This document shows, in pieces, positions 46,289 to 48,300 of a stretch of 64,000 nt of DNA. Position numbers and translations under genes: made by a program. Position 1 is the first letter of the stretch. Every line of letters begins with the position of its first letter. Origin of the DNA: the human T2T-CHM13v2.0 reference genome, Homo sapiens; the NCBI RefSeq assembly GCF_009914755.1, contig NC_060931.1. The stretch is one strand, 5' to 3'. Under the pieces are notes generated by a model that saw only the letters and a program-made list of their open reading frames with translations, ran no database searches and was not told where the DNA came from.

Positions 46289-46710
46289 TCCCTTAGTCCT
46301 CAAATACTGGCTGGTTTGGGGGCTGCACTTCCGACCTCCCTGCCAAGTCTGCAGGCCAGTGGCATCAATGTGCCAGCAAGCATTTTAAAATAATCTGTTC
46401 TTATTTTGAGTCAGCATTTCCTGAGAGTGAGACTTCTGGATAAAATTGCAATCAAGTATCAGACAGGACTCAAAATGGGAAAAAAAAAAGTCCATTTTAG
46501 CCACGTTTAAATCTTGCCTGCCACTGAAATGCTACCTTTCTCAACCTGAGTCCTGTGGGAAATAAAGGGATGGATAAAGGGCGTAGAGAGAGGGGATATG
46601 CTTTCTGTTTGATTTGGAGGTAAACGTTTTCCCCAGCCCCACTCTTCGCGTCTCAGGGTATGTTTCTATTCTGCCCTATCTAAAGGCCACCAGGTATGCT
46701 GATTTTAAAA

Positions 46711-46900
46711 CAGTGATTCTCAAAGTAGGGTAATCCCAGGCCGGCAACATCAGCATCAACTGGGAACTTGTTAAAACTGCAAATTTGGGGGCCCCACTCC
46801 AGGGCCCTGCTGAATCAGAAAGTTGGTGGCACCCACTGAGATCTGTCTTTTAGAAGTTCTCTGGCTGGTTCTGGAACACTCTCAAATTAAACAACCCTTG
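46711..46900 (+). mobile_element. MER5A (hAT-Charlie) in IR spacer
   Basis: cagtgattctcaaagt...catcagcatcaactgggaacttgtt...ctgaatcagaa. Confidence 0.85.
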
Positions 46901-46917
46901 ACTTGAAAGGCTGGTTC

Positions 46918-47236
46918 TTTTTTCCTTTCTTTTTTTTTTTTTCAGAGACAGGGTCTCACTCTGTCACCCAGGCTGGAGTGCAGTGACATAATCATAGCTC
47001 ACTGGCAGCCTCGACCTCATAGGTTCAAGCCACCCTCTTGCCTCAGCCTCCCAAGTAGCTGGGACTACAGGCATGCACCACAATGCCTGGCTCATTTTTT
47101 AATTTTCTGTAGAGATGGGGGTGGAGCAGTCTCCCTGTGTTGTCCAGGCTGGTTTCGAACTCCTGGCTTCAAGCGATCCTCCTGCCTTGGCCTCCCAAAG
47201 CACTGGGATTACAGCTGTGAGCCACCACACCCAGCC
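46918..47236 (-). mobile_element. AluJ in IR spacer
   Basis: atcatagctcact, gtgttgtccagg AluJ-type. Confidence 0.9.
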
Positions 47237-47499
47237 TCCAGGTTGATTCTCTTACTCTCTGAACACATTCCCTCTCTCCAGCCCTCCACCCATTCCTTTA
47301 TTTCCCACAGGACTCAGGTTGCATCCTAGTGACAGGTGAGATTTAAACATTGCTGAAACTGACATTTTGCTTTTTAAATTTTCCAGTCCTATCTGATACT
47401 TGATTGCAATTTTATCCAGAGGTCCCACTCTCGGAAAATACTGACTCAAAATAAGAACAGATTATTTTAAAATGCTTGCTGGCACATTGATGCCACTGG

Positions 47500-48300
47500 C
47501 TGGTTCAGACTAACTAATTAATCCTGATTTGACCTGAATTAATGCCTAATCTGTGTAAAATGATGGAGATTTACTGGAATGCGGCAAATGTGAGAATATG
47601 AAAACCAAAGGCACGTGGGAGTGGATTCAACATGAGGGTGACATGAGGATTACAGCACTTCTTCGGCTGGTGCATTATTTGAAGTTTGAATTTTCTTCCT
47701 CTCTCCTCTCCACCCCACCTCCTCCAAGGGAAAAAAAAATTACCAGAAGACATGAGCATATTGTCTTCTTTCTTCCCAAATAAAGGTAAACTGACAGTGC
47801 TTTCAATGAAAGCCTCTGTGTGATTGGAATTAAATGTCAAATATGATTTCCTGTTGGCAATTCAAAGTGTTGGTGTCAAAACCAAAACTGACAGCATGGC
47901 TGCAGATTAGTATCTGTCTGGATCACGGCATCACACTGCGGGGAAGGTTTACGATTTAGTAGATTAACACAGCTCTCTTCACGCTAGCACTTAAGAGATA
48001 ATTTGTTCAAGCAGGAGCCGATTAGATTGCGATGCCCATGAGCAGAAGCTCTGTCCCCTGAAGTTCCGTCAGGCGTTTGATAGCACACCCTGCCCCTGTG
48101 GGGTTCTGCCATCATTACTGGGTGACAGGCAGGAGAGGTGAGCGGGCCACAGCTGCCAGCTGCCTGGCTGTCAGTAGCCACCAAGTGATGTCTGCTGGCG
48201 ATATCTCAGAGGGAAAAAAAATGGAGCTTCTATTGATCCAACCAATATGAAATGGCCTTGCAGGTTGGAGATCTGATTCATTGAACTTTGCTGCCCACAT
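47500..48300. promoter_or_regulatory. Candidate conserved developmental enhancer
   Basis: Repeat-free; TAATTA/TAATCC 47515-47524, TGACAG at 47792, 47889, 48123 and rc 48168; motif content only, no alignment. Confidence 0.4.

What the first reader, a model, noticed from the sequence alone, without database searches (positions are those of the whole stretch)
46355..47500. Unrecognised inverted repeat with perfect blocks inside diverged arms
Seen: arms 46355-~46600 and ~47263-47500. The outer 60 bp are exact reverse complements, the next 56 bp carry 6 mismatches (all transitions), then a diverged gapped stretch, then another exact 27-bp block (46542-46568 / 47295-47321). The spacer holds a MER5A and an AluJ; without them it is only ~150 bp. 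Both arms carry TGAGTCA (AP-1) in the perfect block. I do not recognise the arms as a known repeat. Inference: the diverged parts imply an old duplication, so the perfect blocks need arm-to-arm gene conversion, recurrent inversion of the spacer (a flip-flop micro-inversion) or selection for DNA/RNA pairing. The right arm runs straight into an enhancer-like segment, which suggests a structure-coupled regulatory element.
Basis: partly seen in the sequence, partly recalled or inferred. Interest (0 to 1): 0.8.

Follow-up and report, generated by a model that had tools for sequence, protein, structure and literature searches.

The report
Single-copy inverted duplication with patchwork arms

Summary
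The arms 46346-46600 and 47263-47511 align in reverse complement at 88% identity. There is an exact 60-bp outer block, a 56-bp block with six transitions, a gapped stretch about 25-31% diverged, an exact 27-bp block, and an inner end about 23% diverged. This unevenness is not chance: shuffling gives P = 2e-4 for the 60-bp run. The arms do not belong to an interspersed repeat family detectable here. BLAST and three mismatch-tolerant probes over the whole assembly found only the two arms, while the same tool recovered hundreds of candidates for the old transposon in the spacer. Rfam finds no RNA family on the arms, and the transitions show no G-U strand bias. Internal clocks date the duplication to about the age of the old Alu in the spacer and much younger than the MER5A-like copy, so the spacer probably already held that transposon. 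The perfect blocks need either arm-to-arm homogenisation (my preferred reading, about 0.45) or purifying selection on twin regulatory modules (about 0.33). No other mammalian genome was available, so the deciding test could not be run. Nothing tested supports a structure-coupled enhancer. This is an ordinary-to-moderate curiosity.

The parts
46346..46600 (+). Left arm of the inverted repeat (255 bp)
   Evidence: In the whole assembly it matches only itself and the right arm.
47263..47511 (-). Right arm of the inverted repeat (249 bp), the reverse complement of the left arm
   Evidence: In the whole assembly it matches only itself and the left arm.
46355..46414 (.). Exact 60-bp outer block (partner 47441-47500). 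It holds TGAGTCA at 46407-46413, a TGGCA-N6-TGCCA mini-palindrome and ATTTTAAAAT.
   Evidence: Longest perfect run is 60, permutation P = 1.95e-4. Motifs read; any transcription-factor assignment is recalled, not tested.
46415..46470 (.). 56-bp block with six transitions and no indel (partner 47385-47440). It contains a 29-bp perfect run.
   Evidence: A 28-mer from this block with up to 3 mismatches hits only the two arms genome-wide.
46471..46541 (.). Diverged, gapped central stretch with an A-run and a 10-bp indel (partner 47322-47384)
   Evidence: 19 of 61 sites differ plus 2 gap events in A1. My hand count of the alignment gives about 25% plus 4 gap events.
46542..46568 (.). Exact 27-bp inner block (partner 47295-47321). 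It starts directly after the 10-bp indel.
   Evidence: The 27-mer with up to 3 mismatches hits only the two arms genome-wide; the reversed control gives 0.
46569..46600 (.). Innermost part of the arm (partner 47263-47294), about 23% diverged
   Evidence: 7 of 31 sites differ plus 2 gap events.
46601..46699 (.). Unique left part of the spacer
   Evidence: Matches only itself in the assembly (query 46601-46711).
46700..46898 (+).
   Evidence: 457 first-look candidates; 40 scored, of which 39 lie elsewhere at 71-86% identity. The copy differs at 41 of 177 sites (23%) from a majority consensus of up to 29 fetched genomic copies. A weak mir-544 match lies at 46750-46869.
46917..47248 (-). Alu with its T-run (the A-tail on the minus strand) and flanking target-site duplication
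   Evidence: Rfam 7SL-type matches at 46943-47091 and 47124-47235 on the minus strand. The copy is 17.3% (13.9% at non-CpG sites) from the consensus of 51 Alus in the window. The target-site duplication is my reading.

Best explanation
This is a single-locus inverted duplication of about 255 bp, not the terminal repeats of a repeat family detectable in this genome. It probably arose by a local replication or repair error that laid an inverted copy on the far side of a transposon already present. That happened tens of millions of years ago, at roughly the age of the old Alu now in the spacer.

Since then the arms have mostly drifted apart. Parts of them have been re-homogenised by arm-to-arm copying: intrachromosomal non-allelic gene conversion, or repair of a fold-back heteroduplex. 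Tracts stopped at indels. This leaves a patchwork of exact blocks (60 and 27 bp), an older converted block (six transitions in 56 bp) and escaped stretches (22-31% diverged).

Shown: the anatomy, the uniqueness in the genome, the non-random patchwork and the relative ages. Inferred: the origin by a template switch or repair error, and conversion as the homogenising force. On this reading the element has no function of its own.
For: 1. Uniqueness. BLAST of each arm against the whole assembly gave 2 candidates, both scored: the arm itself and the other arm. Probes of 27 and 28 bases allowing 3 mismatches hit only the two arms; the reversed controls gave 0. A 21-mer probe gave 84 hits, which I calculate to be about the number a random 21-mer would give. 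I examined the 18 non-self hits that had fetched loci, out of 82, and none extended beyond the seed.

2. Positive controls for the same tool. The MER5A-like spacer segment gave 457 candidates. A MIR-like piece in the right flank gave 11 matches at other loci.

3. The patchwork is non-random.

4. Both sharp block edges coincide with indels. The outer 116 bp (46355-46470) end at the A-run indels, and the 27-bp block starts right after the 10-bp gap. Heterologies of this kind would be expected to end conversion tracts; that is my inference, not tested here.

5. Relative clock. The diverged parts differ by 22-31% pairwise, about 0.12-0.15 per lineage. That compares with 0.139 (non-CpG) for the Alu and 0.23 for the MER5A-like copy.

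6. No sign of function. There is no Rfam family on the arms and no G-U strand bias, 12 against 16. CpG observed/expected in the arms is 0.19 and 0.10 against 0.23 for the window. At the two substitution sites where one arm holds CpG, each arm has lost one independently (read).

7. Precedent. Neighbouring Alus show conversion within about 10 kb, more strongly the closer they lie (passage in PMC8230782). Template switching is reported to turn imperfect inverted repeats into perfect ones and to homogenise arms (passages in PMC8755829 and PMC8604942).
Against: At least two or three separate events of different ages are needed, and the recent ones had little homology to work with. The 27-bp block is flanked by sequence 22-31% diverged on both sides. 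The 60-bp block has only 9-12 poorly matching bases on its outer side.

A single fold-back event with patchy repair does not explain why the six isolated transitions next to the perfect 60 bp were left uncorrected.

The published template-switch cases concern much smaller structures: arms of at least 7 bp with spacers of at most 70 bp, and inverted segments of 17-33 nt. Here the spacer is 662 bp.

The profile (exact, mildly diverged without indels, freely diverged with indels, exact, diverged) is also what block-wise purifying selection gives.

No orthologue or second haplotype was available, so conversion was not observed, only inferred.
Confidence: 0.45

Rival explanations
1. Twin cis-regulatory modules. 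The duplication doubled a transcription-factor-binding module in mirror orientation, and both copies are kept by purifying selection. The exact blocks would be binding-site clusters (TGAGTCA-type site, TGGCA-N6-TGCCA, ATTTTAAAAT, the inner TGAGTCC...GGGAAA block). The 56-bp block would be weakly constrained and the rest free. The mirror geometry may be incidental or may matter.
For: One assumption explains the whole profile: the outer 116 bp (46355-46470) have no indel, the central 70 bp have 2-4 indel events, and the edges between blocks are sharp. The perfect blocks are too short, and too poorly flanked by homology, to be easy conversion substrates. The right arm abuts TE-free unique sequence with TAAT-rich motifs (read) and a CpG-retaining stretch, observed/expected 0.47 against 0.23.
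Against: No conservation, chromatin or binding data could be consulted. Every one of 60 positions would have to be held in both redundant copies. The arms show no CpG retention. The window is very Alu-dense, with 51 Alus of at least 250 bp in 64 kb. By my recollection that is unlike typical blocks rich in conserved elements. RefSeq lists no functional element here; according to the hub's table the only one in the window is a silencer at 50836-50998. The motif-to-factor assignments are recalled, not tested.
Confidence: 0.33
2. Relic of a very old, low-copy palindromic DNA transposon. The long terminal inverted repeats would have been co-opted and so preserved, while all sister copies decayed beyond recognition.
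For: The anatomy fits: long terminal inverted repeats around a short loop, and a CAG close to both ends. Later insertions landed in the loop and not in the arms.
Against: No other copy was found by BLAST or probes, although the same tool finds families of MER5A and MIR age. There is no target-site duplication: the 6 bases outside the CAG are themselves part of the inverted repeat (AGTCTG / CAGACT), not a direct repeat. The diverged parts of the arms look younger than the MER5A-like copy, which does not fit a family old enough to have vanished.
Confidence: 0.07
3. A transcribed long hairpin (precursor of small RNAs, or an editing substrate) kept paired by selection on RNA structure.
For: As RNA the arms would pair strongly: cofold energy -335 (plus strand) and -354 (minus strand) kcal/mol, against -123 ± 7 for 30 shuffles of the right arm. 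This follows from the repeat itself.
Against: Rfam has no match on the arms at E up to 1. The hub's table shows no annotated transcript over the region. The transitions are not biased toward G-U on either strand, 12 against 16. The central stretch has lost pairing through indels. The small hairpins inside each arm are not kept between arms.
Confidence: 0.04

Closest known systems
Non-allelic gene conversion between closely spaced repeats (neighbouring Alus; passage in PMC8230782, which cites Aleshin and Zhi 2010)
   Same: Repeats of about 250-300 bp at about 85-90% identity lie under 1 kb apart, and partial homogenisation leaves a mosaic of identity.
   Different: The arms here are a unique local duplication, not copies of a dispersed family. 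Conversion is inferred from a single genome, not shown by phylogeny.
Large sex-chromosome palindromes kept by arm-to-arm gene conversion (abstracts of PMC3723533, PMC8327919 and PMC8981503, seen in the search listing only)
   Same: Inverted arms around a spacer, with arm-to-arm homogenisation proposed.
   Different: Those arms exceed 99% identity (abstracts); by my recollection they are kilobases to megabases long and carry genes. These arms are 255 bp, 88% identical, autosomal and non-coding.
Short template-switch mutations and quasi-palindrome correction (PMC5453318 and PMC8794818 from the search listing; passages of PMC8604942 and PMC8755829)
   Same: A replication error copies one arm from the other. 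It makes imperfect inverted repeats perfect and can invert the spacer.
   Different: The described cases have arms of at least 7 bp with spacers of at most 70 bp, or inverted segments of 17-33 nt. Here the spacer is 662 bp and the perfect tracts are 27-60 bp.
Palindromic architecture of the IgH 3' regulatory region (passages of PMC9936319, which cites D'Addabbo 2011 and Saintamand 2016)
   Same: An inverted duplication in a regulatory setting whose symmetry, rather than its sequence, is said to be conserved.
   Different: That palindrome lies in a regulatory region of about 17 kb and surrounds a known enhancer. Here the loop holds only two transposable elements and about 130-150 bp of unique DNA, and no regulatory activity is known.

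Membership tests
Interspersed DNA-transposon family with long terminal inverted repeats (a catalogued MER/MITE type) | Multiple dispersed copies in the genome | tested here: not met
   Only the two arms were found by BLAST and by 27- and 28-base probes allowing 3 mismatches. Positive controls worked. Families too old or too small to detect cannot be excluded, and no Dfam library was available.
Interspersed DNA-transposon family with long terminal inverted repeats (a catalogued MER/MITE type) | Direct target-site duplication flanking the termini | tested here: not met
   The flanks at 46346/47511 and at the CAG ends show no direct repeat. AGTCTG / CAGACT is inverted. The age of the element could have erased a duplication.
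Interspersed DNA-transposon family with long terminal inverted repeats (a catalogued MER/MITE type) | Terminal inverted repeats | tested here: met
   Arms of 255 and 249 bp at 88% identity.
Palindrome maintained by arm-to-arm gene conversion | Arms cluster by species rather than by arm (concerted evolution) | not testable with these tools
   No other mammalian genome or human haplotype is held. Exact scans of genome contigs and viral contigs gave 0 hits.
Palindrome maintained by arm-to-arm gene conversion | Near-complete arm identity (over 99%) | tested here: not met
   88% overall; identity is complete only in the 60-, 29- and 27-bp runs.
Short template-switch / quasi-palindrome correction | Short spacer, so that the arms can pair within one replication intermediate (at most 70 bp in PMC8604942) | tested here: not met
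   The spacer is 662 bp now, and about 350 bp without the Alu.
Conserved non-coding element / enhancer | Cross-species sequence conservation | not testable with these tools
   No orthologues available. The only proxy, CpG retention, is at background level in the arms (0.19 and 0.10 against 0.23) and mildly raised at 47781-48110 (0.47).
Conserved non-coding element / enhancer | Regulatory chromatin or reporter activity | not testable with these tools
   No such data were available here. The hub's RefSeq table lists no functional element at 46-48 kb.
Structured RNA / microRNA hairpin | Match to a described RNA family | tested here: not met
   Rfam at E up to 1 over 45500-48500 gave only Alu/7SL-type, Alu-derived mir and weak mir-544 matches, all in the spacer.
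Structured RNA / microRNA hairpin | Substitutions that keep pairing on the transcribed strand | tested here: not met
   Of 28 transitions, 12 are G-U compatible on the plus strand and 16 on the minus strand.

The most novel reading that the evidence does not exclude
The mirror symmetry itself is selected. On this reading the element is a miniature palindromic regulatory unit in a region annotated only with lncRNAs. By my unverified coordinate estimate it lies a few hundred kb upstream of AUTS2. Two exactly matching binding-site blocks per arm would be held identical, by selection or by selected conversion, so that the arms act as a pair, for example by symmetric factor loading or by pairing after strand opening. 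It would be a small autosomal analogue of the IgH 3' regulatory palindrome.
Probability: 0.1. Interest if true: 0.65.

Novelty: new member of a known kind. Interest (0 to 1): 0.3.

Why it matters
If the blocks come from conversion, the locus is a clean, datable example of arm-to-arm homogenisation acting on very short (27-60 bp) tracts across a spacer of 0.35-0.66 kb. That scale lies between the short template-switch events and the large palindromes described in print.

If the blocks are held by selection in both arms, it would be a mirror-duplicated regulatory module whose geometry might matter.

Either answer can be had cheaply from existing primate and mammalian alignments. As it stands, it is a well-defined structural curiosity with no evidence of function.

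Tried and rejected
- **Repeat family.** BLAST of both arms against the whole assembly found only the two arms. A 21-mer probe gave 84 hits against 3 for the tool's reversed control. That control contains three CpGs and is not comparable. My own estimate for a random 21-mer with up to 3 mismatches in 6.2 Gb is about 50. None of the 18 loci examined, out of 82 non-self hits, extended beyond the seed. The other 64 were not examined.
- **Sequence-only covariance model of the arms (R1).** It could not be run on the whole genome; the tool does not accept it. In the window, besides the two arms, it gave only weak hits. The best was 11.4 bits at 15797-15966. Two weak reverse hits inside the arms reflect small internal palindromes.
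- **Orthologues through contamination in public collections.** Exact scans of genome contigs and viral contigs with a 35-mer gave 0 hits.
- **Paper search for the neighbouring lncRNA name.** 0 papers.
- **Extension of the repeat into the spacer or beyond 46346/47511.** None seen.
- **Conserved small hairpins inside each arm.** The left-arm pairs (46463-46482 with 46537-56; 46398-46412 with 46467-81) are degraded in the right arm without compensating changes.
- **Microhomology at the duplication junctions.** Nothing convincing by eye.
- **CpG retention as a proxy for constraint.** Uninformative for the arms.

Full report

Yes. The repeat finder reports three co-linear inverted pairs: 46355-46489 / 47366-47500 (135 nt, 90%), 46480-46537 / 47316-47373 (58 nt, 74%) and 46542-46582 / 47281-47321 (41 nt, 90%). 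A gapped local alignment joins them into one inverted repeat, 46346-46600 against 47263-47511. It has 261 columns: 214 identical, 22 transitions, 6 transversions and 19 gap columns, which is 88.4% identity over ungapped columns. MAFFT gives the same picture (A1).

- The exact 60 bp is 46355-46414.
- Six transitions and nothing else lie in 46415-46470.
- A gapped diverged stretch follows.
- The exact 27 bp is 46542-46568 / 47295-47321.
- TGAGTCA / TGACTCA lie at 46407-46413 and 47442-47448.

The repeat runs 9-12 bases further out than reported, across a small indel (AGTCTG...CAGG against AGTCTGAACCAG).

The patchiness is not chance. In 200,000 shuffles of 40 difference events over 249 units, a perfect run of 60 or more occurred with P = 1.95e-4. 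The two longest runs together never occurred.

**2. What is in the spacer?**

The spacer 46601-47262 (662 bp) holds two insertions.
- A minus-strand Alu. Rfam 7SL-type matches lie at 46943-47091 and 47124-47235. Its T-run starts near 46921. My reading of its target-site duplication is AGGCTGGTTC / AGGTTGATTC.
- An old interspersed repeat at about 46700-46898. Searched against the assembly, it gave 457 first-look candidates. Forty were scored, and 39 of them lie elsewhere at 71-86% identity.

I could not check the names MER5A and AluJ against a repeat library. The remaining 130-150 bp are unique (for 46601-46711).

**3. Is it a transposon?**

I found no evidence that it is, and the controls were good.
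- Each arm, searched by BLAST against the whole 3.1-Gb assembly, produced two candidates: itself and the other arm (the latter at E up to 10).
- Probes of 27 and 28 bases with up to 3 mismatches hit only the two arms; the reversed controls gave 0.
- A 21-mer probe gave 84 hits. By my calculation that is about what a random 21-mer gives. The tool's reversed control gave 3, but it holds three CpGs and is not comparable. None of the 18 non-self hits I examined, out of 82, extended beyond the seed.
- The same BLAST route readily found the MER5A-like family and a MIR-like fragment in the right flank (11 matches at other loci). It therefore sees repeats of that age.
- There is no target-site duplication. 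The bases just outside the CAG ends are themselves inverted, not direct.

What stays open is a family too old or too small to detect, and I had no Dfam.

**4. How old is it?**

Three internal clocks were available.
- The MER5A-like copy differs at 41 of 177 sites (23%) from a majority consensus of up to 29 genomic copies. The copies were chosen as the best matches, which biases this figure downward.
- The Alu differs by 17.3% overall, and 13.9% at non-CpG sites, from the consensus of the 51 Alus of at least 250 bp in the window; these are 51 of 59 BLAST hits. Eighteen of the other 50 are more diverged. Part of the figure is subfamily difference rather than age.
- The freely diverged parts of the arms differ by 22-31% pairwise, about 0.12-0.15 per lineage.

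If those parts are neutral, the duplication is about as old as the Alu insertion or somewhat older. It is roughly half as old as the MER5A-like copy. If the central stretch was itself converted or constrained for a time, the duplication is older.

**5. What keeps the perfect blocks?**

At 25% pairwise divergence, a 60-bp run without a difference has a probability of about 0.75^60, or 3e-8 (my calculation). Even at the 9% of the neighbouring block it is about 0.004. I could test the following.

- **RNA pairing.** The 28 transitions in A1 split 12 to 16 for G-U compatibility between the two possible transcripts. Rfam finds nothing on the arms. The small hairpins inside the left arm are not kept in the right arm. 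The very low cofold energy (-335 and -354 against -123 ± 7 kcal/mol) follows from the repeat itself. There is no support for selection on RNA structure.
- **Constraint.** I had only weak proxies. CpG observed/expected is 0.19 and 0.10 in the arms against 0.23 for the window, and 0.47 at 47781-48110 in the right flank (8 CpGs where about 4 are expected). At the two substitution sites where one arm holds CpG and the other TpG/CpA, each arm has lost one independently. The window is very Alu-dense. By my recollection that is unlike typical blocks rich in conserved elements.
- **Conversion.** It cannot be observed in one genome. Both sharp block edges do sit at indels: the A-run indels at about 46471-46485, and the 10-bp gap just before 46542. 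Such heterologies would be expected to stop a conversion tract (my inference).

**6. Weighing the two main readings**

*Conversion* needs no function and has precedent.
- Neighbouring Alus show conversion within about 10 kb, more so when closer (PMC8230782, passages).
- Template switching is reported to perfect imperfect inverted repeats and to homogenise arms (PMC8755829 and PMC8604942, passages; PMC5453318 and PMC8794818, search listing only).

Against it:
- It needs several events of different ages.
- The recent ones must have acted on a 27-bp island flanked by sequence 22-31% diverged, and on a 60-bp block at the very edge of the homology.
- The published template-switch cases have spacers of at most 70 bp.

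*Purifying selection on twin modules* explains the profile with one assumption, including the lack of indels in the outer 116 bp. It requires both redundant copies to be held at all 60 positions, and it has no independent support here.

I put conversion at about 0.45 and twin constrained modules at about 0.33. A co-opted ancient transposon is about 0.07 and a functional RNA hairpin about 0.04. Recurrent spacer inversion is compatible with the conversion reading but does not by itself make arms identical. It could not be tested.

**7. Comparison with what is known**

The element works like a small autosomal cousin of the conversion-maintained palindromes and of converting neighbouring repeats. 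It fails their defining criteria: over 99% identity, and large arms (the latter as I recall them). It also lies outside the size range of described template-switch events.

The IgH 3' regulatory palindrome (PMC9936319, passages) is the closest regulatory analogue. It belongs to a regulatory region of about 17 kb and surrounds a known enhancer.

I did not search the literature for this locus beyond the lncRNA name (0 papers), and I did not open supplementary tables. I therefore do not claim that it is undescribed.

**8. Verdict**

The 'structure-coupled regulatory element' is not supported by any test made here.

The finding is a well-defined, single-copy inverted duplication with mosaic arms. 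It is a new member of a known kind and of modest interest. The open question, conversion or selection, can be settled in an afternoon with primate and mammalian alignments.

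Noticed in passing
window 45185-45540 and 45937-46287: Two direct copies of one interspersed repeat, 73-85% alike in the pieces found (D6, D9, D11). The second copy ends 58 bp before the left arm. The family was not identified.
   Followed up: no
window 47512-47560 and 47781-48110: The right flank is TE-free. It starts with a cluster of TAAT-type motifs, and 47781-48110 retains 8 CpGs (observed/expected 0.47 against 0.23 for the window). 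This may be a conserved element, but the evidence is weak.
   Followed up: partly
window 48366-48445: A short piece matches 11 other places in the genome at 78-94% identity. By my recollection it looks like a MIR core.
   Followed up: no
whole window: 51 Alu copies of at least 250 bp lie in 64 kb, 6-25% from their joint consensus at non-CpG sites. All 25 of the longest inverted pairs within 2.5 kb appear to be Alu-Alu pairs, judged by comparing their coordinates with the Alu list.
   Followed up: partly
window 49330-49367 / 49434-49471: Another small inverted repeat: 38 nt, 84% complementary, 66 nt between the arms, AT-rich (I18).
   Followed up: no
window 46358-46376 and 46389-46398 (mirrored in the right arm): The perfect outer block contains two small palindromes of its own, TGGCA-N6-TGCCA and ATTTTAAAAT. 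TGAGTC occurs three times per left arm (46407, 46467 reversed, 46548), and the middle one is lost in the right arm.
   Followed up: partly
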